Part shown: positions 10,748-30,260 of the stretch, piece after piece
Numbering within the stretch: the stretch's first letter is position 1
Layout: each line of letters begins with the position of its first letter
NCBI GenBank assembly: GCA_951406725.2
Contig: OX597820.1
Location: 114,390,001-114,454,000 of the forward strand
Length of the DNA stretch: 64,000 nucleotides
Reading direction: 5' to 3'
Source of the DNA: Octopus vulgaris
Lineage: Eukaryota
Notes under the pieces: model-generated
The model's input: only the letters and a program-made list of their open reading frames with translations
Told to the model about the DNA's origin: nothing
The model's database searches: none
Program-made: the position numbers and the translations under genes

Positions 10748-10962
10748 TAAGGCGGCAAGATGGCAGAATGGTTAGCATGCTGGGCGAAATGCTTAGCGGT
10801 ATTTTGTCTGTCTTTATGTTCTGAGTTCAAATTCTACCGAGGTCAACTTTGCCTTTCATCCTTTTGGGGTCGACAAATTAAGTACCAGTTGCATACTGGG
10901 ATCGATCTAATCGACTGGCTCCCTCCCCCAAAATTTCAGGCCTTGTGCCTAGAGTAGAAAAG
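10748..10962 (+). mobile_element. tRNA-derived SINE (family C, Nin-like domain) nested in an RTE tail
   Basis: Head ggcggcaagatggcagaatggttagc...gagttcaaattc; body gaggtcaactttgcctttcatccttttggggtcgacaaattaagtacc; TSD atttggt(a/g)acctta at 10734-10747 and 10963-10976. Confidence 0.8.
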
Positions 10963-11399
10963 ATTTGGTGACCTTACTAGTGTTGGTGTTACAAAAAAAA
11001 GCGCTCAGCACACATTATAAAGTGGTTGGCATTAGGAAGGGCATCAATCCATAGAAACAATACCAAAGTTGACATTGGAAAATGATTTTTCCCAAGTATT
11101 TTAATCTGTTATTTCTTAGTTTACTGAAGGCACGGCCATGTGATATGGAATTTTCAACCAAGTGATTTCAGGTTTATTCCCACCGTGTGGCACCTTGGGC
11201 TTATGTCTACTGTAGCCTTGGGTTGACTAATACTTCCAGAGAGGGAAATCTAGCAGATGGAGATTGTATGGAAGACTGTTGTATGTATGCTTTTGTGTCA
11301 GTTTGTATGTATTTGTAATGACATTGGCTAGACAACGATGACATTTGTTCATGTCCCACATAATCATTATACCTGTAACTTAGAGGAATAAAGTACCTT

Positions 11400-12030
11400 T
11401 ATATTATTTACATTTGATGGATATTTGTCCTCATCTTGTTTGTTATTAACACGTTTCGGCTGATATACCCTCCAGCCTTCATCAGGTGTCTTGGGGAAAT
11501 TTCGGACCTGGGTTCACATTCCTAAGGTATTTTTTGATATTTTTATTATTCAGTTCACTGCCTGGAATCAAACTGGAGCCCGTGCTCTTAACCACTATGC
11601 CATATGCCTGTGGGCAATTATGGAGTGAATTTTAGAGCTTATAAATCTAATATTTTCCTATCCTTCCATAATACCAGTTTTCATATGCTATTCATATCTG
11701 CACTACGTCTGCTTATACGAAAACTAAAAGAAGCAGCACATATGCTAGGACACAGCAACCTCCTAAGCAGACTGAGTGCAGATATGAGTAGCATATGGGA
11801 ACTGGTATTAAAGAAGGATAGGAAAATATTAGATTTATAAGCCCTGAATAATAATAATAATACTAATACCATTGAAAAATACCTTAGGATTGAGAACCCA
11901 GGTTCGAAATTTCCCCCAAGACACCTTATGAAGGCTGGATGGTATATCAGCCAAAACGTGTTAAAAACAAAGATGAGGACAAATATCCATCAAATGTAAA
12001 TAATTCCTCATCCCTTAAATATAGAACTGT
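11400..12030. mobile_element. Fold-back non-autonomous Penelope-like element with tRNA-like segment and hammerhead-like cores
   Basis: Inverted repeats 11403-11553/11843-12004 and 11634-11715/11764-11845; TSD ataaagtacctt at 11388-11399 and 12031-12042; CTGATGA...GAAAC core at 11490-11448 (-); centre encodes RKLKEAAHMLGHSNLLSRLSADMSSIWELVL, resembling a GIY-YIG C-terminus. Confidence 0.8.
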
Positions 12031-12894
12031 ATAAAGTACCTTATTTGTAAATCAAGTAATAGCTGGGAAGCAGAAAGGGCACTGCATATGTCATAGATAA
12101 ATGTTACAAGAAACAAGATGGAAACTAATATGTCATGCCATAAACCATGTCAGCATTGAAATCACTGATGTTGAAACAATGGTAATTGCTAAATATCAAT
12201 GAAAAGCTGGACATATAACTTTAGTGGATTGATAATAAACAACTTGAAGCAATTCAAGCCAGAGCCAGTTTAATAGCACCACCTAACAATATGCATTATT
12301 TCTCAGCTGAATTATAAAGAAGGGCCCTCGCTGGTTTAATTTCAACTAACTCTTTAGAGGCAACTTAGACTGACTGAAGCCTACAGATAAGTTTGAAGCT
12401 AAAATCTTTGTTTAGATATCATTTGTAAACTGCAAACGAATGGTGATTTCTTATAGTAAGTCACCCAGGCCATTTCCAACAAATTGGGAATGAAACACAA
12501 GGAATTGTTTGCTAACAACTAACTACCACACAACAGTAGTCACCAGACCATGCAACAATAATGTTTTACAAAATGTACAAAACCACATTTTGTTTCTTTT
12601 CTGGGGGTGGTGAGCAAGATGAAGTAATGTCTAATATTTGACTGGTACTTATTTTATCAAACCCCAGATGGAAGAAAGGCAAAGCCAGCATCAAAGGGAT
12701 TAACCCAGAACTAAAAAGAAGTCAATAAATAAAACAAGGTATTTGATATTTAATAAATTTTGTAATATATTAAGCATTATGTCTGCACAAAGAGATGTAA
12801 GTTACGACATTCCAGGCAATGCTTTTCTCTGAAAGCTGTTAAAATTCCCAGCTTCCATCATATTTCCTTGAAGAAAGGCCCTTCCTAAAATGTC

Positions 12895-13245
12895 TTTCGT
12901 TCCCAACCACATGGTTCCAGGTTCAGTCCCAGTGTGTGGCACTTTGGGCAAGTGTTGTCTGCTATAGCCTCAGGTCAACCAAAGCCTTGTGAGTGGATTT
13001 AGTAGACAAACTGAAAATAGTATGCATGTGTGTGTGTCCCCAACAACTACCTGACAACTGGTGTTGGTGTGTTTACATCCCTGTATCTCAGTGGTTTGGC
13101 AAAAGCGACCAATAGAATAAGTACCAGGCAAACAAAAAAAAAACAAACAAACAAAACTCATAGAAAACTGAGGTCAATTCATTCAACTAAGTTTCTTCAT
13201 GGCAAGTACCCCAGCATGGCCAAAGTCTAATGATTGAAACAAAAG
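12895..13245 (+). mobile_element. tRNA-derived SINE (family B), diverged
   Basis: ccacatggttccaggttcagtccc...tttgggcaagtg...cagcatggcc...gattgaaacaaaag, homologous to 43612-44030. Confidence 0.75.
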
Positions 13246-14860: not shown

Positions 14861-16317
14861 GTTTGTAGTGTATGTGATGTTAATCTAATTAATGCCAAAG
14901 AATAATGAAAAAGAAAAAAAAAAACCCCATAAAAGTAGATCATTAAATAAATGAGGTTAGCTGATAGCGATACTTGAAATACTGGTCAGGTAAGTAAAAT
15001 CCTGATACTATCTGGGTTTATTTTGGCTTTAAGCAGGAGTTTGAAACAAGAGAAACTTGTTAATGATACAGAACAGGTTAAGAAAAGACAATCTAGTTGC
15101 TATATCTCTATACTGTGCTAGAACTAAATGTTAAAGAGAAACAATGATTGTCTAGAACCAAGCAAAATAGGATAAATTGCAAGAATGCCTAGTGTCTTAC
15201 AGTGAGAGTTTTAATTCAAAATCTACCAAAATTAAATAAAGCATTTGAAGGTTCTGGTTGAAGAAATAAGACAAGGTGAGAAGACATATTTCCGATGACT
15301 TGTCTAAACTGTGACTGTCACGTATAAAATAAAATGTTGCTGTTGGTGCCATACAAGACAGGATAATTATCAATACATTCATTAATGGACATGAGTTTGA
15401 ATTCTTTTAAAAATTAATTGAATCGTTCCTGTCTTTTGAGTAATAGCATAAATATTATATACCAGCGTCAAGCATTCTGAAACTGTTTGCTGTGAAATTC
15501 TGAGTGGCTAAAGGACTCAGGGGAACTAACCAAAATGTTTGCTGTTCATTATCTTTTTTTTCTTTTTTTTGCAGGTGCTACAAGGTGTTGTCCATGGTAA
15601 AAACAATTTACTTTCCATGACTAATTTAATTCTAAGTAGGTGCTACTGTGCAGTAAAGTTCATTGCTGCAAGTAGTGGATCTAGAATGGAATTAAGGGTT
15701 GCAGTAAAGAGTCTAGTTGTATGTAAAAAGGAAACCATGCAACTCAGCAAGAACTTTCTCTCATTCACTTAATGTTATTAAAACCACCTCTTTGTGACTG
15801 ATTTAATGCTAGGAAAACTGATTTTTGTTGTTTTACAAAGAAGTTAATCAAAGATTAATTACAATTAATGGCTTTATTGAAACATCTGAACTGTTAGTTC
15901 TTGTCTGACAGTGTTTCATTTTGTATAACTAAGTCCTATTGATACTGGAGACAGTCAGCTTGCATATGTTCTACTGTACTACATGTTTTTACTCATTCCA
16001 ACCAGTGAGTTGTGGTCATGCTGGGGCACAAAGCGAGGAATTTGCGGGGAAGGAGTGAAGTCAATTAGCGTAAACGTCAACTGTATGTGCACAACTGATC
16101 GACTTAACAAGGATGAAAATCAAAGTCATCTCTAATGGATTGAAACAGAGAATATTTAGGAATCTTATGAAATACTTCCAACCAATCTGGAATTTAAATG
16201 TTTTGACACATGACTGTCTTGTATAATAATAATAATAATAATAATAACAATAATAATAACAATAATAATAACTGAAACAAAAAGTAATTTTACAACTGAA
16301 GCCAACAACACAAATTA

Positions 16318-17030
16318 TACATACACAAATATACATATGCATACATACATATACATGCATATATGCATACATATACACACATGTATGCATACATACATAT
16401 ACATGCATGTACGCATACATACATATACATGCATGTACGCATACATACATATACATGCATGTACGCATACATACATACGCATACATACATATACATGCAT
16501 GTACGCATACATACATATACATGCAAGTACGCATACATACATATACATGCATGTATGCATACATACATATACACACGTACGCATACATATATACACATAC
16601 ATTTACATATACACATGTGTACACACACATTAACATATAAACATACATCCGCACACATTTACATATAGACATACGTACACATTTACATATAGACACACAC
16701 ACATTTACATATAGACAATGGTACACACATATTTACATACACATGTATACACATACATATGTATACATGCATGTGTGTATATAAATTTATACACACACAT
16801 ACCTATACATACAGGAATATATACATGCACTCATACACAAGTACATACATATGTATGTATGTATATATACAGACATATATATACACACACACACCTGTAC
16901 ATACATATACACTCATATACACACATACATATATATATACACACTCATATACACACCTACATACACATCTATATATCCATATATACATATTTACAACTAC
17001 ACATTAACATACATATTTAGATATAGACAC
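16318..17030. repeat. (TACA/CA)n compound microsatellite with 26-bp unit acatgcatgtacgcatacatacatat
   Basis: Unit repeats directly at 16401, 16427 and 16453. Confidence 0.95.
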
Positions 17031-18865
17031 ACAAGAATTCAAACATTTCATGCTAAATTTACTTTTCATATCAACCAAAGTATCTTTACATCATATGTGG
17101 AGTAAAGTCGAACATTGTTAGCCATTAGACAAAAACAAAATGAATAAATAAAAATAAGAACAAAAAATTCTCACCAAGCAACCAAGCAGAAGTATGTAAA
17201 TGAGATGCAATAAGCGAAGCTATTCAAAATCATGCCACACCCCTTTTTTATTACTTTTTGCTGAACAGAACATAACACCAAGAAGCAAAAGAAAGCAATG
17301 TTTGGGACCGGAGACAGAGAATACACACAGATAGCAGATATGACAAGATATATAATTCAAATAATAATGCAACAAAAAATATAAAATTGTCAAGAAAAAA
17401 AAAGTTCTTTTAATTAAACTGAAAGCAAAAAAGCAAAATAGAGTTTTGCAGATTTCTTTTTCTTCTATTTAATTTAATCATGTTAATGAAAAATATTTGA
17501 AATAGTAATAAGCTGTTAGAATATATACTAAGCTGTTAGAATATATACAATAAAATATTAAATAAATAATAGCATTGATAATAAATAGATGTTAAGGTGT
17601 GTGTAAAAAGACAAAAATAACAAGACTTATTAGATGCGGGTCTTAATAATCAAAATATTTTCTTTTTCACAAGATTTAGCTCAGAATAATGGAACCTAAA
17701 TGGGTGAGGATGGGGAAATCCAAAACAAAGAGCACCCCTGTTGTTCAAATATTTGAGAAGGTAGGGATTTAGGTATAATATATAAACAGAAATGTAATAA
17801 CATTTAAGTAACCAAAGTATACTTTACACAATTATTCTCAAAATATATATTCATCGTCATAATTTTATGTTTGCTTTCCATGCTACTATGGATCTCCACA
17901 GTTTGAGTCAATTCTGACTTGGAGTTACTGCCCTCCTAGGCAGGTTGGGGGATCAAATGCTGGTTCTACATTCTATTTTTGACATGGTTTCAATGGCTGG
18001 ATGATGTTCTAACACCAACCACATAACACAATGTACTGGGTGCATTTTATTGTGGTACCAACATGAAGGGTTGCCATGTCCTCAACAGGACAAGAAAAAA
18101 TGTCCAAAGGGTTCTCCTAATCCTATTTTCTGCTATTTTGCCAACAACATTACAGCGTAGTAAGGGAATTTTATTATGGCCCCGACACTGATGATGTTGC
18201 TTTGAAGACAAAGGAGTCTTCACTATTCTTTGTTACCTAGGTTTATTCAGGGCAACATGACCAACAGAGTGGGGAAGGTGAGGAGGCAATTAGAGAAGAT
18301 ACCAAAAGAGAAGGGAAAAGTGAAAGTATGATGGGTGTGTTGGTGGTGGGGAAGGTGACTGAGGTGTTGCTGTGGAACTAGACCATGCACATGAGTATAT
18401 GTGTGTATATATACATATATGTATATGCACACACACAGTCCCAAATGAATTCTTTCCAACTAATACTTTTAACAAAGGCGTTAAAGGTAAATTCCATCAA
18501 TTCTATTATTATTATTGGTTATATTCTATGGGTGTTAGGAACAATTGAAACAATTTGATGAAAGGTTCATAAAACAAAACTCTAGTGGAGAATTTTCTCC
18601 AGTTACCCAAGTATTGCTCTATCACAGTGAGATCTTTTAGTTGAGATCTCAATCTGTGATCCCACTTTGTAATAAGAAATCAAGAGCAGTTTGTACAGAT
18701 TTACATTGAAAGGTTCAAAGAGCTAGAATGATTCCAAGCAAGTTAAAAATGAAGAAAGATTATAATGTAGAGAGAAGAGAATTCTAACATTTCAATCAGT
18801 CTTTATTTACTTGAAGATTTCCCTTGATAATTAAATATGCTCAACTTCAACTGATGTACTTATTA

Positions 18866-19325
18866 TAATGGGTCATCCCATAAATAATGCAGTTTTTACA
18901 GTTGCATGAACTAAAAGTCAGAGAGGGATGGGATAGACTACCTGCATCAACTTACTATAAAAGCAGGTAGTAATTTTACCTTGTCCTTGTTGCAAGTTTT
19001 GATTTGGAATGCAGTTTGATTTTAACAGTTATTTTTTTCAAAGCTATAATGGAAGTGACAAAGGAGCATATTTGGCATATTTTGTTTTATGAGTTCAATA
19101 AAGGCAGTAACGCTATGGAAAGTGCGAGGAATATTACTGCAGTATATAGGGATCGGACAATAAGCCTAAGCCAGTGTCAACAGTGGTTCCAGAAATTCCA
19201 AGACAGAAACTACAGCCTAGAAGATGAGCCTCAGCCTGGAAGACCTGTAGAGCTCAACAAGGACATCCTGCAAACCCTGGTGGAACAAAATTCCATTGTA
19301 ACTGTTGAGGAACTAGATTAAAAAA
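18866..19325 (+). mobile_element. Mariner transposon 5' fragment (terminus and HTH of transposase)
   Basis: ORF 19004-19321 MEVTKEHIWHILFYEFNKG...WFQKFQDRNYSLEDEPQPGRP is a mariner N-terminal HTH; TIR-like start tgggtcatcccataaataatgc. Confidence 0.85.
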
Positions 19326-19834
19326 AGAACAGTTTCCACGGGCTCCCTTTCAGGGCCTTGAAAGCTGGTAGAGAAGAAAAGTTTTCTTCAGAGACCTAGA
19401 CTGAATATTTGAAATAAGATAAATAAGGCAACCAACGAGAGGGTGGAAGGACAAATATTGATATTGAATTAACAGATTAACCCTACCAACCAAGAATATC
19501 TCCTCCTCATCCCATCAGTATCAGATGACCACACAGTTTCTGCCAACTAAATTTCATTTACAAAGCAATAGTAAAAGACACCCAAAATATCAGACAGTGA
19601 GATTTGGCATGAAATTATGTAGTTGCAAACCAAACTTCTTAAACACCCTATGTTATGTAGTAAGTCACATATATAAACTATTTAAGCCCCCTTAACTTAC
19701 CCTATGCCCTTCAGTGAGTTACATACAAAATGCATTTCTTAACTACCCTTCTTATCTATGCTAGGTCATACAAGTCACATATTCTTTCCCTTCTTACCCA
19801 CACTACATTATATATTAAGTCACATATTCTTGTA

Positions 19835-20046
19835 TTCCTTTGTTTCAGTCATTTGAATGTGGCCATGCTGGAACACCACCTTGATAGGTTTTAGTCAAAC
19901 AAATTGACCTAAACATTCATTTTTTTAAAGCCTAGTACTTATTCTATCAGACTTTTGCCAAACTGCTAAGTTATGGGGATGTAAACACACCAGCACCAAT
20001 TATCAAGCAGTGATGAGTGGACAAACACAGACAGACATAAACACAA

Positions 20047-20085
<39 letters not shown>

Positions 20086-20243
20086 CAGGCTCTTTCAGTT
20101 TCTGTTTTTCAAATCCACTTACAAAGTTTTGGTTGGACCGAGGCTATAGTAGAAGACACTTGTCCAAGATATCATGCAGTGGGACTGAACATGGAACCAT
20201 GTGGTTGGGAAGGAAGCTTCTTACCACACAGCCATGCCTGCAC
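19835..20243 (-). mobile_element. tRNA-derived SINE (family B)
   Basis: Homologous to 30716-31129, internal (TA)n. Confidence 0.8.
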
Positions 20244-20759
20244 CTATGTAATCTATTTCTTCCGTCACAGTGAAATTTCATGTTCTTAACTAGAATTTGA
20301 AGGTCACATGACAAAATCTTAAAGTAATGGTAAAATGAAGCTTCAGAAAACTGCCACAAATACTGACTACCTATTTCTGTAGGTACACAGAAAAATTATA
20401 CACATGAATATATTCAAATAACACTAGGGCCATTAGATCAATACAATACACCATGACTGAGTGGATATCAATCTGATCTCCAACTGATAAATACATTTGT
20501 GAAAAACAATGGTTAAGATTAGTCTAGTTTAATAGAAATTGAGTTTCTATTATTTTTGGCTTCTGATAGAATTTATAAGAAAAAAGACATATTTTGAATG
20601 AAATTTAAATTTATATTTCCAATTCAACATTCATAGAGGTGATTCTTTGTCATGGACCTAGTTTCCTCCAAGTCAGCAACAACAAACATTTCGAAGGCAT
20701 TTTTGCTGTCAAAGCAGAGGTTAATCATGTAAGTTACATCACAGCCTTGTCTATTTAAC

Positions 20760-22100
20760 TCCATCCTTTTTACATCTCCCATTGCCATGTCTTTCTCAGT
20801 TTTCTCTTTCTAATTCCATTCACATTTATTTCTATTACTTTCCTAATCTAGTCTCTTCCATCCTTCCACAACGCATAACCCAGCCACCCTATTTCTTTTC
20901 ACAACATCCATTTCTGGCTCTATTCCTATCATTCTCCACAATTCATTGTTTGCTTGTCTCCAAGTGATCCTCTACTCATCCAATAAACCATTCTCATTTA
21001 AGTTCTTGCTAACCTTCCCTTCTGCTCCACATTCACTACCCATGTCTCACTTCCATAAATCATAACCTTTTTCACATGTGCAGTATACACCCTTCCCTCA
21101 GTTTCAGTGGCGCTCCCCACTTCATTAACAAGCCACTTAGTTCCTGAAACCTTTCATAAACATTGGAAACTGATCCACCTTCAACATGTCTTCTAGGTAA
21201 CAAAATATTTTCACATCTTCCAGTTTCTTGCTATTTCCAATATCCAGTTCAACATTCCCTACTTATACATCTTGCACTTAAAAGTAGCTGCTACATTAGT
21301 TAATAGCCCTCTACATTTAATAATCTACGTTTTCAATGAACCCTCTCAGTGTATTTTGTACATTTAACCCTTTCATTATCAACCCGGCTGAAACCGGCTC
21401 TGGCTCTGAGTACAAAGGTTTTGTTTACATAAGTTTTGAATTAAAATTTCTCACCAAACCTTAGTTACAATTTATGTTCCTAACACTAGCTTAATGATAA
21501 CTAAGTTATTTTACTAAATTCTTTGTTATATTTAAAGTAATTGAAAGAAACACAGAGCATCTCAAAATAAATACAGTAACGAAAGGGTTAATGGAATTTA
21601 CCCTAGGACCCTTCCTTCACACTGCACATAACCACTTCCCTCTACTCTCCATCTCACCACATACTTTACCATTTGACATCAACTTCATATCTTTAGGCTC
21701 CATATATTCCTTCTATCTGTTCATCTTTTTCAATCTATTCATTCTCTCTATTATTTGTGCACAGAAATTTCCAAAGCCCTCACACTTCAAACCAAGATCT
21801 CCTTCTTGGCTACATGTAATAGTAAGCTTAAGTAGTGGCCTAAAGTACTCCCACTTTCACATACTTCATCCAAACAGTTGCAATATCACTACTATGATCA
21901 ACTGATCACCCTCTTCTCTTTTAATGCTTATCTCACCATTTTACATGGCACTCTATCAAAAGCTTTTTGAAGATCAACAAACTCATGAAACTTCTTCAAG
22001 TCCATGCGACTGCTTTACAATAAAAATTGCATCAGTTGCTCCTCTTGCTTGATAAAACCTAACTAGATTTCTCCCTCTCCCCCAATTTTAGCCAACCATA
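20760..22100 (-). mobile_element. Heavily degraded RTE-type RT region, interrupted by a MITE
   Basis: Minus-strand remnants such as FVDLQKAFDRVP (about 21980-21945) and GATDAIFIV (about 22045-22018). Confidence 0.55.
21368..21587. mobile_element. piggyBac-type MITE
   Basis: TTAA TSD at 21364-21367 and 21588-21591; TIR CCCTTTC(A/G)TTA. Confidence 0.85.
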
Positions 22101-22284
22101 TCTTTACTGAATGTACTTAAAAATATCAATTACAAAATCTATTAAAAAGAGAATTAATTGTAAATTCAAGATGTCATGAAAGATTTGTTGTTCTTCAGAG
22201 ATTTTTTAACCATGAACAAACTGAGGAATCAAAATTCTTTAAGCTACTTACCCATCTTACTATAAAATGTTTAAAAAAATATAT

Positions 22285-22495
22285 TCTTTTGTACTTGTTT
22301 CAGTCACTTGACTGCAGCTATGCTGGAGCACCACCTTTAGTCAAACAAATCAACCCCTGGACTTATTCTGTGTAAGCCTAGTACTTATTCTAATGGTTTC
22401 TTTTGCTGAACCAATAAGTTACAGGAACGTAAACACACCACAATTGGTTGTTAAAGAATGTGGGGTGGGGGACAAGCACAGATACACATATACAA

Positions 22496-22539
<44 letters not shown>

Positions 22540-22670
22540 GCCTTCTTTCAGTTTCTATCTACCAAATCCACTCACAAGGCTTTGGTTGGCCTGAAGCTAT
22601 AGTAGAAGAATTTGCCCAAAGTGCCACACAGTAGGCATGAACCCGGAACCATGCAGTTGGGAAGCAAGTA
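22285..22670 (-). mobile_element. tRNA-derived SINE (family B)
   Basis: tacttgtttcagtca...gctggagcacc...gaacccggaaccatg. Confidence 0.8.
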
Positions 22671-22877
22671 GAAAAAAAACTAACTTTCAATTCAGATATC
22701 TTAAAACCATTCTGATGACTAGTTGGTTGGTAACTTTAGGATAAACTACCCAAAGAGTAGAAACAGTTTTTGAATTCCAGCTGTCTAACCCCACTCCACG
22801 ATATACTGCTAGTACTTAAAGAGCTTGATTAAATTCCAGACATTATGAAAGATGCCACTGACCAAAATATAACTAAA

Positions 22878-23100
22878 TTAACACTTTCATTACTATGTTG
22901 AAATAATTTTGTTTCAATCTTGAAAAGAATGAAAAATTTAATAAAATAACTGTCAACATTTATCTGATGTTTGGAACATAAATCAACATGAAATTTTGAT
23001 GGGAAATTTTAATTTAGATCATGTTGAAGTAGGAAATTTGTATCATAGAAGAAAGACTTATATTTTAACCTTTTTGGTATCAAAAGGGTTAAAATATAAG
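22878..23100. mobile_element. Diverged piggyBac-type MITE in the opposite orientation to 21368-21587, ending in a 44-bp palindrome
   Basis: aatttaataaaataact...ggaacataaat...aattttaatt match the reverse complement of the 21368 MITE; terminus aaagggTTAA at about 23083-23092. Confidence 0.6.
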
Positions 23101-24829
23101 CCAGGTAAAAGGAATGGAATTAACAACATTCTTTGATAAAAGATACTGTCTTGAAATATTAATTACTCATTCTTTTCATAGTTCATCGATATATCATTGC
23201 AATTTTTCACCATCATTTTCTAATCAATTCATGATGCAGACCTACCCACTCTAATGACTATGTTAGATTCTAATCATTATCTTCATGGTAATCTTTTGAG
23301 AATTACAGATGAAATTTTTGTCAATGGGCATGTCTTTATAATCTGTGGGATGCAGTATATGAGTACCTACAAACAAACCAAGTGGAATATAGAATGTCAG
23401 TCATTAAGACTTGTTTGTAGTCTCTCTCTTGTCTGAATGAAAGGGGATTTCTACAGACCTCTTCAAAAGATGTATCTCTGAAATACTGTCTAAAGAAAAT
23501 CATGACCTGACATTTAGACATTATTTCTTGCAACTCCTCCCACTGGAAAAAACTGAATTAGCTCCTTGAAAAACATTTCTTGGCTGTGATACAGCCTTTT
23601 GTAAGCCACCCAGGAAAGAGAGAAGGATGAGAGGACTGGATTATAGGCATTGATGATGTGACGACTGTGAAAGGCTATACCTAGGAGGATTGTCAACTAA
23701 CCTTAACCATTTTGGACAGGTTTCAAGTAAAGCATATTTGTTGCCACAGGTAACTGACATAGAATTGATGGAGGTCCAACTAATTATCTGCCTTGAATGA
23801 TCAAAGGGTACATGAAAGCTAGAGTAGCTGCAAAGATTAATATTCCAAGGCTGATTTTGGAAGTGAGAAAAAGGTGAAAAATGTTTGGAGAGTGAGGGAC
23901 ATAACTGGACAAGGAATTTAACTGGTATATACAATAGTGCACATTGACTTCCGCCATCTTTGTCAGTGTAAGTGAAGCGTAAAATCTTAGCAAGGGATGT
24001 GAATACAGAAGTCATTGAAAATGAAAATTTTAGAGAAGAGAAAGTTGAGGCATGTTCTTAATGCAAAAAAGAGAGCACTGACCAAATTTCTGCCACTTAC
24101 TAAAATGTCTAAACTAACTTGAGAGTTTTTAGCTTCACGTCTTAATACACTTGATCAGTAGTACAAGACTATACCACTACCTGACAAATCTTTTATAGTG
24201 GAAGCTCCCAACTGAAATGACAGTCAGAAGGAAAATATTAAAATAAAAGTTAAAACGTTTAATTAATATTATCATTACTAATTATAAATTTGGAGTGAGA
24301 CTCAGGTGGAGAGGGTCAGGCTTTCCTTTCAAATATTACCATTAGTGTCCAACAAGAAGGATTATGTACCAAATTGGAATAGCTGGGACAAAGAGTTCCA
24401 ACTGAAGCTGGGTACTCTAACCATAGTGGCATACTGCAACCATGTGAAGTTGTCCAAACCATCAAGAGTATCAGTTCTGGTTTAATACACCAGTTATTGA
24501 TGGTTCAGACTACAGTTGAGTACTTCCAGCCATCAACAACAATTCTAACTACAGTCAAATATATTAGTAAATGTTTGAATATTTGAAAAAGGCATTCTTT
24601 GACCCAATTTCATTAATGATAAATAAATAGCATGATTAGAGTACAAAAATATATGTAAAACATTAAAATACTTCAATCAAAATATATAATAATAGCAATA
24701 ATAAAAATGAATATCCTGAAGGATTATTTTAAAATTCAAGTTTTGCTATAAGAATATGTATGGTGAGAATAATTGTGTAAAGTGTGCTTAAATCACTTAT
24801 GATAGAGAAAGAAATGAAAGTGAATGGAG

Positions 24830-25180
24830 GTTGATGTATCATGCAAATCAGAGTGTTGTGTGCAAAGTGTGAGTGTAATGACTGTAATGAGCAAGTGAGT
24901 GTAGCACACATGAGTGTAGAGTTCATGTAGGTGCAATGAGTATGTGAGCATAATGTACAATGTGCAACTGCAGACAGAGGACAACTGTGTTTGTGCAAGG
25001 TGCAAGTATATCTGAAACATGCAAATGGGCATGTGTGTGTATAATGTGCAAGTGTGTGCATGAGTGTATTGTGCATGTGTGTGCATGAGTATTGTGCAAG
25101 TGTGTACATGAATGTATTTGTGCAGGTGCATGTGTGTGTAGTGTGCAAGTGTGTTTGTAATGTGCAAGTGTATGTGAAAG
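24830..25180. repeat. Degenerate TGTGCA(A/T)G low-complexity tract
   Basis: Recurrent tgtgcaagtg / tgtgcatg units. Confidence 0.75.
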
Positions 25181-25603
25181 GCAGGAAACATTTCCTGTAA
25201 AGAGAAAGTAGAAATGGGTATAGAAACGGATCGTCATGCACAGGAAGATGGTGCAGCTGTGTCAATGTTGTGTCCCATGTGTGTCAGAAACAAAAGTCAA
25301 ACAAATAGGAAAACAGACCACATTTTGGTAAATTACCTCCACCCCCTTCAAACGGAACAGGGTCAACATGGACTATGGATAATAGGGTTCCTCTTTGGAC
25401 AATGAAACAAACAGACGCACACACAGAGTGATACTGATGATGGCAGTGGTTTGAGAGAAACAGACACACACATACACACACAAACACTGATGATGATAAT
25501 GGTGTTGGACTGGGTGGGAGTTGGTGATAGTAAAACCAGAAGCTATGGCATAATGGCAGTTATTTTGGTGAATTCTGTAAAATAGTGAGAATGCTGTTCT
25601 TAC

Positions 25604-25741
25604 CTCTTGTAATAGGTCCTGTGCAGCAATGGCCTTCAACACATTTTTCTTGCTGGTTTCCTGCACTTCACCGCCAAGCATTAACTCGTCAAGCATGAAG
25701 TAAGCTTTTTCAAAATTAAAGATTATGTCAAGCTCACATAC
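25604..25741 (-). CDS. AP1S2: AP-1 complex subunit sigma, coding exon ([46 protein letters not shown])
   Basis: ggcag|GTATGT acceptor, GAG|gtaaga donor, 138 nt, phase 0/0; peptide nearly identical to sigma1 adaptin. Confidence 0.97.
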
Positions 25742-26029
25742 CTGCCAATAGAGACAAAATGGAATTGTGCTCATTCAGTGCATAAATTATTCAACAATAT
25801 GAAAATATAATTTTAAAAAACAAAGAATCACTTCGCTACCATGTGGTTTGGGGGTCAAGTGTCTTCTACTATGGCTTCAAGCTGACAATGCCTTGTGAGT
25901 GAATTTGGTGGACAGAAAATGCTTGGAAGTTTACAATGTGTGTGTGTATCCATCTTCTCTCATACTCCCAAACTTTTTTACCCACCATTACCACTTCTCT
26001 TACATTCACCTTTTTGTAATTTGAGGGCA

Positions 26030-26400
26030 CACTGAGACCTCTTCAACACCATCGTTTTTAGCTGGGGTAACCACATATTACCCCTACAGCAAGACACCTG
26101 TCCCTGTTCCTTGAACTGCCTTATCACCTGGCACAAAGCCTCATCCAACAATACTACCTTCTACTCAGTTGAGGGTGTCTTGTGGAGTGGGTTACATGAT
26201 GACCTCACTCGTGCTAGTACCACATAAAAGTGCTTGTGTGGTGCCATGTTAAAAGCACTCGACACATTATAATGTGGTTGGCATTAGGAATGGCATCCAG
26301 CTGTAGAAACCAAGCAGCTCTCCAGCTTGCTAGCTCTCATCAAACCATCCAACCCATGCCAGCATGGAAAAGAGATGTTAAAAGTTGATGATTATGATGT
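26030..26400 (+). mobile_element. RTE-type LINE 3' UTR nested in a degraded SINE
   Basis: gtggttggcattaggaatggcatccagctgtagaaac...cccatgccagcatggaaa; SINE-B pieces on either side (about 25835-25950, 26400-26427, 26564-26610). Confidence 0.65.
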
Positions 26401-26609
26401 CCACTGCCTGACAGTTGGTGTTGGTTTCGTTGTCGTTTAACGTCCGTTTTCCATTCTAGCATGGGTTGGACAGTTTGACTGTGGGCTGGCGAACCAGATG
26501 GCTGCACCAGGCTCCAGTCTTGATCTGTCAGAGTTTCTACAGCTGGATGCTCTTCTTAACGCCATTTATGTCTCCATAAGTTAGCAGTTTGACAAAAAGA
26601 CCGATAGTA

Positions 26610-27930
26610 TCTTGTACCCTGGAATCTTTGCTGTACTTGTTGCCAACCCTCACCTTGCTGGTAGCATCCCTGTACAAGGCTTGTACAACTCTCACCAACT
26701 GCTTGTCTATCCCTAGTTTCTGCATTGACCCACCAGATAAGGGATTGAGGGACCCTGTCTAAAGCTTTCTCCAATCAACAAAAGCAAGTACAGAGGTTTA
26801 TCATTGGCTAGGTGTTTCTCCTGCAGTTGTCTTCCCAGAACTATAGCAACACTGATGCTTCTCCCTGGCACAAAACCAAACTGCATCCCATCTAGACTAA
26901 CTCTCTCCCTAATTAGTTGGGCTATGACCCTCTCTGTGACTTTCATCACCTGATGCAACAATTTGATACCTCTGTAATTATTTCTGTCTAAGGCATCACC
27001 TTTACCTTTGTAGCAGTTGACTATGGTGTTGCTACACCAGTCATTGTGTATGGCTCCTTCGTGAACTATCTGATTTACAATACAAATTACTAGACCATAA
27101 TCAACACCACCAGATATTTTAAGCATCACAGCAGTGATTGCTGATGGGCTGGGTGGGTGGGGAGAGTGTCCTGTCTTCATATCCTTAATTGCCTTATCTA
27201 CCAGGGTATTGTAGGTAGTTGGTACTTCAGTTGGAACAATCTTTGGCAGACTCTCCTCCTCCCATTCATTCTCCACATTCAGAAGTCTTTCATAATGGCA
27301 TTTTCAAGCCTCCTTCTTTGCAGAATCATAAATGCAAGTGCACCATCATCCATGCAGACACATTTCTCTCCTATGACATCACAATTTTCTATCACACACT
27401 ATTTTGCAATCAGAAATATTTCAGTTCTTTGGTCCTTGTGTCACTGAACCTAGGCAAACTTCTTCTTTTCTGCTTCTCCTTTGGTTAAATATACTTGTCT
27501 CCTAGCTTCCCTCCTGGCCATCTGATACAGTTCCCTGCTACCCCTACACTTCCAGGCCTGTTTCTTTACTCAAACGGCCCTCTCTACAGTATTGTTCCTC
27601 TACCACATTACCCTAGGTCTGGAAGGGGCTTTGCACCAGCCAAAGATTTGGTCTGTGGCACTCAGCAAGCTGTTCTGCAAGAATTCCCAGTTGCCCACTA
27701 TGTCACAAATCTGTCACTCCTCCTCCCTTCCATCAAATTTCTCAATTAAGATGTCCCTAAATCTCTGACCATATGAAGGGCCTTTAAGCTTCCAAATCCT
27801 TCTTTTCCAGATCGGTCTGCTTCTTGGCATCCTTCTGGCCTGGAGTCAAAAGTCACTAATGACTAGTCGATACATTCTTCACCAGGGAGGGTTTTTGTAT
27901 TTAAGAGCAACCATACATTCCGCTATTCTA
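26610..27930 (-). mobile_element. RTE-clade LINE fragment (endonuclease-RT linker and RT N-terminal part)
   Basis: ORF 26713-27276 DWCSNTIVNCYKGKGDALDRNNYRGIKLLHQVMKVTERVI...QFGFVPGRS; EKALDRVP; frameshifted. Confidence 0.9.
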
Positions 27931-29092
27931 AATATCCATTAAAAACTATTTTTTTACTCTATGAATGAAACTTTTATTTTAAGGGCTTTTGTAGAGTTTT
28001 AAAACATATAAACTGGGTCAAGCTTACTGCTGAGAAACAAATAAAACATAGCTAAGAAGTAACAGTCACAGACAACAATGACAGCCTCAAATAATTATTC
28101 ATTTTAATGTGCACTTTCTCAGGCTTACATGTGATGGACAGTATTTATTAGAGTAGATTTTCTATGGCCAGATGCCCTTCCTATCACCAACTTCCACCTG
28201 TTTCCAAACAAGCTAATATTTCCTCATGGCCACACATGAATATTGGACATGAACAACATTTATTCTTAGAACTGTGATGCGATGTGAAGACAGGGTGACA
28301 AACACACAAAGTTATTTTAAACTCATGAAATGGATTTTTTTCCACTTTGGAAATGAGCATAGTGCTGAATTGTATCTCTGTTCCTTTTCTTCAGACATTC
28401 ACACATAATCGTCATCATACAAGCATTGTTGCTTGTTTCTAGTTTTCTGTGAATCACATGTCTGAACACGGGGAAATATCTTGTTTGGAAACGGGTAGTG
28501 GTTAGCAACAGGAAAGGCATCCAGTTGTAGAAAAGCTGTCTCAACAAATTCCATGCAAGCATGGAAAAATGGATATTAAATGGTAATACAAGTTTCTATA
28601 TATATCATAACATCCACTTTTCTATGTTTGCATAGTTCAGAGTTTGAGATAGGTTTCCAATCCTATTGCCAACCGTCACTCGTTTCCAAGCAACATAATA
28701 TTCTTCATGGCCAGATATGTTCGTGCAGAATACTGGAAATGAATGACACTGCTTGTAGGACAGTGACACTCATTTTTACAACTATCATGCTATGTCAAGA
28801 CAAGGTAACATGAACACACACACAATGGGCTCCTTTCTGCCTCCCTTTATCAAATCCACTCACAAAACATTGGTCAGCTTGGAGCTATAGAAGAAGACAC
28901 TTGCCCAAGGTGCCAAACAATGGGACTAAACCAAGAACTATGTTGTTGGGAATTATGTGGTTGGGAAGCTGCATCTATTAGCAATCATAGAGAAAAGTTG
29001 CATATATAACAAAAATTCTTTTTCTGTGCAAAACATTTTCGCAAAACGCTCAAAGTATATGCATAACAGTGATAAGGCCAAACAATACTTAC

Positions 29093-29201
29093 GCTGCCAA
29101 AATATTTATCAAGCAATTCAACATATCTGTGTATGATTTCAAGTGTTAATAATTCATTGTCAGCTGGTTCAATGGCACAACAGAAGTAAAGGCTGGCATA
29201 T
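29093..29201 (-). CDS. AP1S2: AP-1 complex subunit sigma, coding exon ([37 protein letters not shown])
   Basis: ttttgctttcag|ATATGCC acceptor, AGC|gtaagt donor, 109 nt, phase 2/0. Confidence 0.97.
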
Positions 29202-29244
29202 CTGAAAGCAAAATGGCAAACAGTGAGCAAACTATCTCTGTATA

Positions 29245-30260
29245 CACAGGCTGTTCAAAAAACCTCTCCGCAGTCTTTAATTGCAAAATAAATATTTATA
29301 AGATGGTATAAGACTACAAAAGGATATATTAGACTTGCTCCCCCCTCCCAAAGTCTGGCGGTGTTAAATCAGGTGATCTTGGTTGCCCAATTCCCTTTGA
29401 AATAACCCGTTCACTGAAAAACTCTTGAAGTAGCTCCATCTTGCTGAAAGTATGCATTACTAATTTCGCTTTCAGTGAGTTGGCCTACAAATGGAGAGAC
29501 AATATCCGAGCAATATCTCTCCGTGTTGATGGTGTCTTCAAAAAATATCGGTCCCACAGTACACTTTCTTGAAATTGCTATCCATACTCCAACTTTTGTG
29601 GGATGCAGAGGTTGCTCATGCGTCACATGTGGATTCTCAGTGCTCCATAATCTTGTGTTTTGCGAATTTATGCATCCTGACAGATGAAACCAAGCCACCC
29701 ATCCAGCACTTCTATGCCTTTTTTGGCAACACAGTTTTGGAACCAATGACAATAACGAAGCCTTTTAGCATGATCCATAGTATTCAATTCTTGAATGGCC
29801 AGCACTTTGTATAGAAGAAACAATTTCTCTTTTACTGCCATGTGAGCACTTCCTAGGCTGAGTTCTGTTTCCCGTGACAATTTGTGTAAGGACTTTGATG
29901 GGCTGGGCTTGCCAACAGTTTATCAGAAAGAAAAGTAGGCCTACCGCTTCTTGCTGCATCTTCCACTGAGCCTGTGTTTCTAAATTTTATTAACAAATCC
30001 TGCACAATGTCCCAATGTGGAACAACAATATTTGGAAAAGTTTCACTGAACTTCTGTTTCACAGTATCTGTATATTTGTTTCCAGCTCAAAACACCAATT
30101 CAACTAAAAATGTACGTTCTTCAGTGGTTAGCATGTTGACACGCTGAAGGGTACATAATGGTTGAGGGACAATGGCTGACACCCGGCCACTCATGCAGTG
30201 ATAGACAAATTGTGCATGCGCAGGATGAAAAAAATTCACTGTGGAGAGGCTTTTTGAACA
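29245..30260 (-). mobile_element. Degraded Tc1/mariner-superfamily transposon (maT/DUF4817-like)
   Basis: TIR tgttcaaaaa(a/g)cctctcc(g/a)cagt at both ends; motifs KFRNTGSVEDAARSGRP, FHLSGCINSQNTRLWS, GPIFFEDTIN, YFQQDGAT, PRSPDLTPPDF. Confidence 0.85.

What the first reader, a model, noticed from the sequence alone, without database searches (positions are those of the whole stretch)
11388..12042. Fold-back mini-Penelope with a tRNA promoter aimed at a hammerhead core (SINE/retrozyme-like hybrid)
Seen: a 631-bp insert with a perfect 12-bp TSD; about 230 bp of arm on each side of a 48-nt loop. Only the left arm is interrupted (11554-11633), by a tRNA-like segment reading on the minus strand GGCATATGGCATAGTGGTTAAGAGCACGGGC..GTTTGATTCC (A and B boxes). 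That segment points at GACAC-CTGATGA-AGGCTG..CAGCC-GAAAC-GTGTT (11490-11448). The mirror core (11920-11962) has two core substitutions. The centre encodes a GIY-YIG-tail-like peptide. Established: Penelope elements carry pLTR hammerheads and inverted 5' pLTRs; Pol III promoter plus hammerhead units occur in schistosome Sm-alpha repeats. Inference: a non-autonomous family that gained a Pol III promoter and forms a long dsRNA hairpin inside AP1S pre-mRNA. Caveat: this copy lacks a clear NUH triplet between GAAAC and stem I, so it may be inactive.
Basis: partly seen in the sequence, partly recalled or inferred. Interest (0 to 1): 0.8.

Follow-up and report, generated by a model that had tools for sequence, protein, structure and literature searches.

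The report
Penelope retrotransposon with a tRNA-type promoter
The hairpin is one ordinary broken insertion of an abundant protein-coding Penelope retrotransposon whose terminal repeat begins with a tRNA-like head, and this head likely lets RNA polymerase III (the tRNA polymerase) transcribe the element, possibly along its whole 2.9-kb length, which would be unusual for a protein-coding mobile element.

Summary
The anatomy is real; the proposed fold-back family is not. The insert is two head-to-head, 5'-truncated copies of an autonomous Penelope/Poseidon element (2,644-nt unit, 835-aa RT plus GIY-YIG), with a family-typical 12-bp TSD. The 'loop' is the 48 nt by which one copy is longer; inversion points differ between loci. 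The tRNA-like segment belongs to the family's pLTR and was deleted from the right arm.

The family itself is the finding. Most copies start at that head: 48 of 63 head-bearing copies sampled by position begin 0-7 nt before it or in its first 8 nt. A 20-mer inside the head has 5,148 exact genomic hits against 947 just upstream. The 2.9-kb consensus has no run of four T (Pol III terminator) on the sense strand; related Penelope ORFs have 2.1 per kb. Short and ORF-linked copies share one consensus and age.

Best reading (inferred, untested): the head is a Pol III promoter making the element's RNA, and internal RT initiation yields thousands of SINE-like solo pLTRs. RNA-seq showed no start site; a hairpin at the same spot is a rival cause. 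The consensus hammerhead is a complete minimal type I; this copy's two are broken.

The parts
11388..11399 (+). Target-site duplication, left copy (12 bp)
   Evidence: family TSDs mostly 10-13 bp
11403..11715 (-). Inverted 5'-truncated Penelope copy (last 26 codons of GIY-YIG ORF, spacer, pLTR without tail)
   Evidence: 87% to family consensus
11639..11715 (-). GIY-YIG C-terminal codons and stop of the left copy
11609..11615 (-). Edge at which 5' ends of family copies pile up (consensus -268 to -262); predicted transcription start
   Evidence: start site itself inferred
11551..11609 (-). tRNA-like head with A box (11602-11592) and B box (11573-11564); this copy has a 16-nt deletion between the boxes and a C-to-T change in the B box
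11517..11519 (-). ATG that opens the 835-aa ORF in the consensus (ORF starts inside the pLTR, 5' of the hammerhead)
11448..11490 (-). Minimal type I hammerhead, core intact but 3 nt including the cleavage triplet missing
11716..11763 (+). The 'loop': extra 48 nt of GIY-YIG coding sequence by which the right copy is longer
11715..12030 (+). Main 5'-truncated Penelope copy; tRNA head deleted just after the stop codon (stop at 11838-11840)
   Evidence: 95.5% and 86% segments to consensus
11920..11962 (+). Hammerhead of the right copy: two core substitutions and the same 3-nt deletion
12005..12030 (+). PLE 'tail' present at one end only
   Evidence: tail on 42 of 94 sampled 3' ends
12031..12042 (+). 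Target-site duplication, right copy

Best explanation
The insert is an inverted pair of truncated copies of an abundant autonomous Penelope (Poseidon-type) retrotransposon whose terminal repeat starts with a tRNA-derived head, and that head likely serves as an RNA polymerase III promoter that would transcribe the whole element. Shown: the unit is head, AAT repeat, ORF start, hammerhead, tail, RT and GIY-YIG ORF, then the next head; most genomic copies are solo pLTRs starting at the head; the sense strand has no T4 run. [quoted passage not shown] How the protein is translated is open; hammerhead cleavage would remove the first AUG.
For: 5' ends: of 63 copies taken in positional order by a 20-mer inside the head, 48 start at -269 to -255, 7 inside the head, 8 run further upstream. 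Of 157 head-bearing copies in all other own-genome loci (a mixed selection), 118 end at -269 to -251, none at -270 to -275, 3 at -276/-277, 36 further up. Of 94 3' ends taken by position, 37 start at -274 to -242 and 13 reach the ORF. Genome-wide exact 20-mers: 5,148 inside the head, 947 just upstream. Several tandem junctions join exactly at G(-268) with 1-2 extra A (L237, L238, L246). The edge lies 13 nt before the A box, at a pyrimidine-purine step, typical of Pol III starts (own knowledge). Head aligns best to host tRNA-Arg, 48-52 identical of 74. T4: 0 in the 2.9-kb consensus; 16 in 45.3 kb of decayed copies against 99.8 in shuffles; 92 in 43.2 kb of 29 T-matched stop-free ORFs of related Penelope elements, 1 of 29 with none. 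P(0) is 0.002 and 0.0105 under two codon models. The 3' regions of four of six relatives inspected are rich in T runs. Of 49 copies where a pLTR runs into the ORF start, 6 keep the head and none extends past it. Solo and ORF-linked pLTRs have equal divergence, 4.4-4.7%, and no diagnostic substitution beyond chance.
Against: No direct evidence of Pol III use. Three RNA-seq runs (a coded species label, about 6% of each read) gave equal depth on both strands, a profile following copy number, and no start site at the head. A short hairpin spans the same edge (-276 to -253), and some -269 ends are fold-back palindromes, so an RT stop or snap-back could make a similar pile-up. G4 runs are also absent from the consensus (P 0.05-0.08). 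Shuffling the element's own codons gives P(0 T4) of only 0.13 and a dinucleotide shuffle 0.045. The 0-of-6 result is not significant alone (about 0.16 by my estimate). The head scores no Rfam tRNA hit and its acceptor stem is lost. No copy with an intact head plus a full ORF was recovered. All 30 Penelope-type protein hits inspected in this genome were this family, so there is no in-genome control family.
Confidence: 0.58

Rival explanations
1. The head is a Pol III promoter only for short pLTR RNAs (a SINE-like by-product mobilised by the element), while the ORF-bearing RNA comes from Pol II read-through or another promoter.
For: Explains the 5' pile-up and the roughly 5:1 step in copy number equally well; avoids translation of an uncapped Pol III RNA; the one dissected Penelope promoter resembles TATA-less LINE promoters (PMC2377424, abstract).
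Against: Leaves the absence of T4 across 2.5 kb of ORF unexplained; solos show no lineage of their own; upstream pLTRs joined to the ORF start at or inside the head.
Confidence: 0.22
2. The head is a passively captured tRNA or SINE fragment; 5' ends pile up because RT stalls or snaps back at the hairpin around -276 to -253, and the lack of T4 is compositional chance.
For: The hairpin coincides with the edge; fold-back palindromes sit at several -269 junctions; G4 is also absent; RNA-seq shows no start there.
Against: A stall is expected at the 3' foot of a hairpin, whereas ends concentrate in its loop and 5' arm with a sharp upper edge; clean non-palindromic junctions occur at -268 to -264; other, longer hairpins such as hammerhead stem II give no pile-up; consensus A and B boxes are both intact.
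Confidence: 0.16
3. A fixed non-autonomous fold-back family (arm, tRNA bulge, loop) that gained a Pol III promoter.
For: Head-to-head pairs are common: 59 of 90 loci have both strands.
Against: No second full-length match among the 40 places scored; breakpoints differ at every locus; the head is in the autonomous element.
Confidence: 0.02

Closest known systems
Poseidon_Ac (PAc) of Anolis carolinensis, Penelope/Poseidon clade (PMC11167929; parts 1-2 of 4 of the text read)
   Same: Single RT plus C-terminal GIY-YIG ORF of about 835 aa; ORF begins in the pLTR across the hammerhead, cut site 3' of the start codon; optional tail; internal RT start explains solo pLTRs. An Anolis protein of 836 aa is 40% identical; that it is PAc is my inference.
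   Different: No tRNA-like head or Pol III promoter in the parts read; promoter only described as likely in the pLTR.
Schistosoma Cercyon PLE minimal hammerheads (PMC4209133; passages)
   Same: Minimal type I hammerhead with short helix I, long helix II, unpaired base before stem II, palindromic helix III; mostly single motifs, and pairs on opposite strands 100-700 bp apart, as in this window.
   Different: The word tRNA does not occur in the main text; no Pol III head.
Schistosome Sm-alpha / Sj-alpha SINE-like repeats (via review PMC6765202; passages)
   Same: Pol III promoter followed by a hammerhead in a short repeat.
   Different: Non-coding and tandem; here the cassette is the pLTR of an autonomous element, the hammerhead lies in its reading frame, and short copies are dispersed with TSDs, tails and inversions.
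Animal non-LTR retrozymes (PMC7229834, passages; bioRxiv 10.64898/2026.07.22.740005, part 1 of 5 and passages)
   Same: Short hammerhead-bearing repeats related to PLE pLTRs.
   Different: Defined as tandem repeats; the preprint has no occurrence of tRNA, promoter or Pol III.
Cassandra TRIM (5S in the LTR) and R2 (ribozyme-processed, uncapped RNA) - recalled, not read
   Same: Pol III cassette in a terminal repeat; protein made from a non-Pol II, ribozyme-bearing RNA.
   Different: Cassandra is non-autonomous and LTR-type; R2 rides on Pol I.
Octopus tRNA-derived SINEs OK, OR1, OR2 (Ohshima and Okada) - recalled, could not be checked (one search found nothing)
   Same: tRNA-Arg-type heads and lengths of a few hundred nt; the solo pLTR class might be one of them.
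   Different: Recalled as ordinary SINEs without a Penelope or hammerhead link; identity untested.

Membership tests
Penelope-like element, Penelope/Poseidon clade | Single ORF with PLE-type RT and C-terminal GIY-YIG endonuclease | tested here: met
   835-aa ORF in consensus; RVT_1 hit; 40-57% full-length identity to relatives. GIY-YIG recognised by alignment and motif, not by its own Pfam hit.
Penelope-like element, Penelope/Poseidon clade | pLTR from partial tandems, inverted 5'-truncated copies, optional 30-40-bp tail | tested here: met
   90 exact pLTR-to-ORF junctions; both strands at 59 of 90 loci; tail on 42 of 94 ends.
Penelope-like element, Penelope/Poseidon clade | Minimal type I hammerhead in the pLTR | tested here: met
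   Consensus has full core, 5-bp stem I, stem II, palindromic stem III and GUU triplet; 22 of 225 copies keep core and both stems intact. Cleavage not assayed.
Penelope-like element, Penelope/Poseidon clade | Clade placement by RT phylogeny; no Zn-finger linker of Neptune/Nematis | tested here: inconclusive
   No tree built; placement rests on best hits and no extra linker seen in the consensus protein.
tRNA-derived SINE (solo pLTR class) | 5' tRNA-derived head with A and B boxes at the element's start | tested here: met
   Rfam tRNA model not reached
tRNA-derived SINE (solo pLTR class) | Transcribed by Pol III | not testable with these tools
   Ordinary RNA-seq showed no start site.
tRNA-derived SINE (solo pLTR class) | Self-propagating lineage distinct from its partner element | tested here: not met
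   128 solo against 58 ORF-linked pLTRs: same consensus and divergence; best substitution difference p=0.002 among hundreds of tests.
tRNA-derived SINE (solo pLTR class) | LINE-derived 3' end with A-rich or simple-repeat tail | tested here: not met
   3' ends are the two PLE positions, with or without tail.
Non-LTR retrozyme | Tandem head-to-tail monomers each with a hammerhead | tested here: not met
   Copies are mostly single or head-to-head; a few partial tandems such as L089.
Non-LTR retrozyme | Circular RNA intermediate | tested here: inconclusive
   No circular joint among the best-supported joints shown; library type unsuited.

The most novel reading that the evidence does not exclude
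An autonomous, protein-coding retrotransposon whose full 2.9-kb RNA is made by RNA polymerase III from a captured tRNA-Arg promoter, with its coding sequence purged of oligo-T terminators, and which sheds tens of thousands of SINE-like solo terminal repeats through internal RT initiation: a route to tRNA-headed short repeats that needs no LINE, and a likely ancestor state for Sm-alpha-type Pol III-hammerhead repeats.
Probability: 0.45. Interest if true: 0.85.

Novelty: new variant of a known kind. Interest (0 to 1): 0.62.

Why it matters
The promoter of Penelope-like elements has been dissected in one fly element, and the role of their hammerheads is open. Here the 5' ends of thousands of copies appear to record a transcription start at a tRNA-type promoter, and the ORF looks built to be read by Pol III. 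If true, a protein-coding retroelement uses the tRNA polymerase, raising the testable question of how an uncapped, ribozyme-bearing RNA is translated (a 2026 paper reports that ribozyme cleavage can drive cap-independent translation; PMC13725137, abstract only). It would also mean that some repeats annotated as tRNA SINEs are Penelope solo pLTRs. The hairpin in the window is itself unremarkable.

Tried and rejected
Rfam and ARAGORN at default settings did not recognise head or hammerhead; ARAGORN with a much lowered threshold calls the head but also many spurious tRNAs, so I do not count it. RNA evidence: no RNA holder listed; raw reads on a long copy gave no start site or strand bias. Reads and contigs on the window gave no empty-site joint, no usable editing signal and almost no depth in unique flanks. 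Viral contigs held no relative. In 80 related loci from metagenome assemblies, 16 showed a downstream hammerhead core and none of these had A plus B boxes before it; one locus without a hammerhead gave a weak box match. Many of those contigs end soon after the ORF, and the closest relative (P0001, 57%) had no DNA available. A search for another Penelope family in this genome returned only this one. One search's refined 5'-end mapping misplaced several ORF-linked copies with divergent microsatellites, so counts are taken. Apparent excess of head deletions in ORF-linked copies is confounded by how classes and the first loci were chosen; rejected as evidence. An independent SINE donor of the head was not seen: 51 of 63 heads are followed by the pLTR body within 690 nt and 59 of 63 by the AAT repeat. 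Literature: ten searches found no report of a tRNA head or Pol III promoter in a pLTR; Repbase, SINEBase and subscription papers were not searchable, bioRxiv supplements are closed, and curated octopus repeat libraries could already hold this consensus. Earlier scan findings: none.

Full report
Observation. The window lies at G000:C7:114390001-114454000 in a 2.8-Gb genome of 227 contigs; I infer an octopus-like host from size and contig count, not from a call. The described anatomy is present: a 12-bp direct repeat at 11388-11399 and 12031-12042, arms 84-93% complementary, a 48-nt centre, box-like motifs and a hammerhead core on the minus strand. Rfam and ARAGORN recognise neither tRNA nor hammerhead.

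What the insert is. The 631-nt query had 6,884 first-look candidates; of 40 places scored only the window matched full length, the rest matched one arm and then continued into coding sequence. [quoted passage not shown] The frame opens inside the pLTR and runs through the hammerhead core, as in the anole element Poseidon_Ac (PMC11167929) and, judged from its peptide, in the closest relative P0001, 57% identical. Against this consensus the right arm is a truncated copy from -417 to -1 with the tRNA head deleted, and the left arm an inverted copy from -368 to -31 with a 16-nt deletion in the head (numbering from the pLTR 3' end). The loop is the length difference. Such pairs are ordinary for Penelope elements (PMC8557442, PMC4209133; passages) and for this family: 59 of 90 loci have both strands, and 33 of 90 have TSDs of 8 bp or more against 2 of 90 controls. 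Both arms lack the same 3 nt at the cleavage site. That variant recurs in 21 of 225 copies not chosen for it, while the consensus is a complete minimal type I hammerhead.

The head belongs to the element. All 34 ORF-linked 3' ends examined carry at least part of the head between the stop codon and an AAT repeat. It has intact A and B boxes at tRNA spacing and aligns best to host tRNA-Arg genes, 48-52 identical of 74, among the 27 distinct host tRNA sequences compared, which did not cover all isotypes. It does not reach the Rfam tRNA model. It was not seen on another repeat body.

Most copies start at the head. A 30-mer at the pLTR 3' end has 3,758 exact hits; allowing for about 4.5% divergence and one CpG I estimate 15,000-30,000 ends. 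I fetched 94 of the 100 listed places. Of these, 13 reach the ORF, 37 start between -274 and -242 (a few are palindrome artefacts), 2 at -307 look like artefacts, and 42 are shorter or break in the microsatellite. A second sample used a 20-mer inside the head, taken in positional order and skipping places already fetched: of 63 copies, 48 start at -269 to -255, 7 inside the head and 8 run further upstream. Across 157 head-bearing copies in the other own-genome loci, excluding the first 30, the edge is sharp: 118 at -269 to -251, none at -270 to -275. Genome-wide, exact 20-mers step from 947 upstream of the edge to 5,148 inside the head; the two words may differ in mutability. The edge is 6-7 nt before tRNA position 1. 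Solo and ORF-linked pLTRs share consensus and divergence, so the solos look like products of the master RNA rather than a separate SINE lineage. This fits internal RT initiation at the pLTR-ORF junction, which in the anole element needs ORF sequence beyond the start sites (PMC11167929).

The sense strand has no Pol III terminator. The 2.9-kb consensus, with pile-up depth of at least 31, has no T4. Decayed copies have 16 in 45.3 kb against 99.8 in shuffles; they share ancestry and are not independent. 65 related loci of 1,300 nt or more have 389 against 308, one with none. In 29 T-matched stop-free ORFs of relatives, which include two near-duplicate pairs, the rate is 2.13 per kb. Codon models give P(0) of 0.002 and 0.0105. 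Weaker results: base shuffle 0.007, dinucleotide shuffle 0.045, own-codon shuffle 0.13 on a partial ORF. G4 is also absent (P 0.05-0.08). The signal is real but moderate.

Mechanism. Shown: element structure, 5'-end edge, T4 absence, shared age. Inferred: Pol III starts near -268 in the upstream pLTR and reads the unit; the protein starts RT at either pLTR; the first yields solos that end at the RNA 5' end, the second yields ORF-bearing truncated copies like this one. Of 49 copies in which a pLTR continues into the ORF, 6 keep the head and none passes it, consistent but not significant. Translation is unexplained: the first in-frame AUG is at -155, 5' of the cleavage site at about -86, and a two-codon upstream frame sits in the head.

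Against. RNA-seq gave symmetric strands, depth tracking copy number and no start site, as expected from passenger transcription in libraries that miss short or non-polyA RNA. A hairpin overlaps the edge and could stop or fold back the RT. No intact head-plus-ORF master was recovered. There is no second Penelope family in this genome to serve as control.

Comparison. It passes the structural tests for a Penelope/Poseidon element. The solo class works like a tRNA SINE in its head but fails two SINE tests (own lineage, LINE-type tail) and is not a tandem retrozyme. Sm-alpha has the same promoter-plus-hammerhead order but is non-coding (PMC6765202, passages). Among 16 related loci with a detectable downstream hammerhead none had A and B boxes. 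Ten literature searches found no tRNA-headed pLTR; a 2026 octopus repeat annotation mentions no hammerhead in its text or supplement. Repbase and older octopus SINE papers could not be checked, so the short class may already have a name.

Verdict. The hairpin is ordinary and the proposed family is not real. The parent family is a new variant of a known kind, with a plausible and directly testable Pol III life cycle. Interest 0.62.

Noticed in passing
window minus strand, about 32564-32400, 29210-29100, 25750-25610: Three coding exons of an AP-1 sigma subunit gene; the last exon was not located, so the insert's position in its transcript is open.
   Followed up: partly
L121, L127, L120 and many others; consensus -188 to -175: The AAT repeat after the tRNA head expands from about 12 nt to over 1 kb in some copies, so the family seeds AAT microsatellites across the genome.
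   Followed up: no
window 11841-11850; L019, L027, L184: Independent deletions of the whole head end at the AAT repeat with different 5' breakpoints; smaller deletions between short repeats inside the head are also common.
   Followed up: partly
L237, L238, L246, L239: A pLTR runs 39-435 nt into the ORF start and then jumps to the head's 5' edge with 1-2 extra A, resembling end-to-end template jumping by the RT.
   Followed up: partly
L063, L037, L053, L435, L436, L459: Perfect or near-perfect palindromes centred on the head's 5' edge suggest snap-back priming of the inverted copy from the cDNA end.
   Followed up: no
   Followed up: partly
window 10750-10965 and 12880-13120: Two other very high-copy repeats flank the insert; the first has tRNA-SINE-like boxes, unrelated to this family's head.
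   Followed up: no
L261:480-2642, L232, L013: A young non-LTR retrotransposon with a 721-codon open RT frame recurs beside these loci; it has T4 runs at the expected rate.
   Followed up: partly
L300, L311, L336 (metagenome loci): Three related Penelope ORFs with few or no T4 runs; their 3' regions show no tRNA head, and those of L300 and L336 are rich in T runs.
   Followed up: partly
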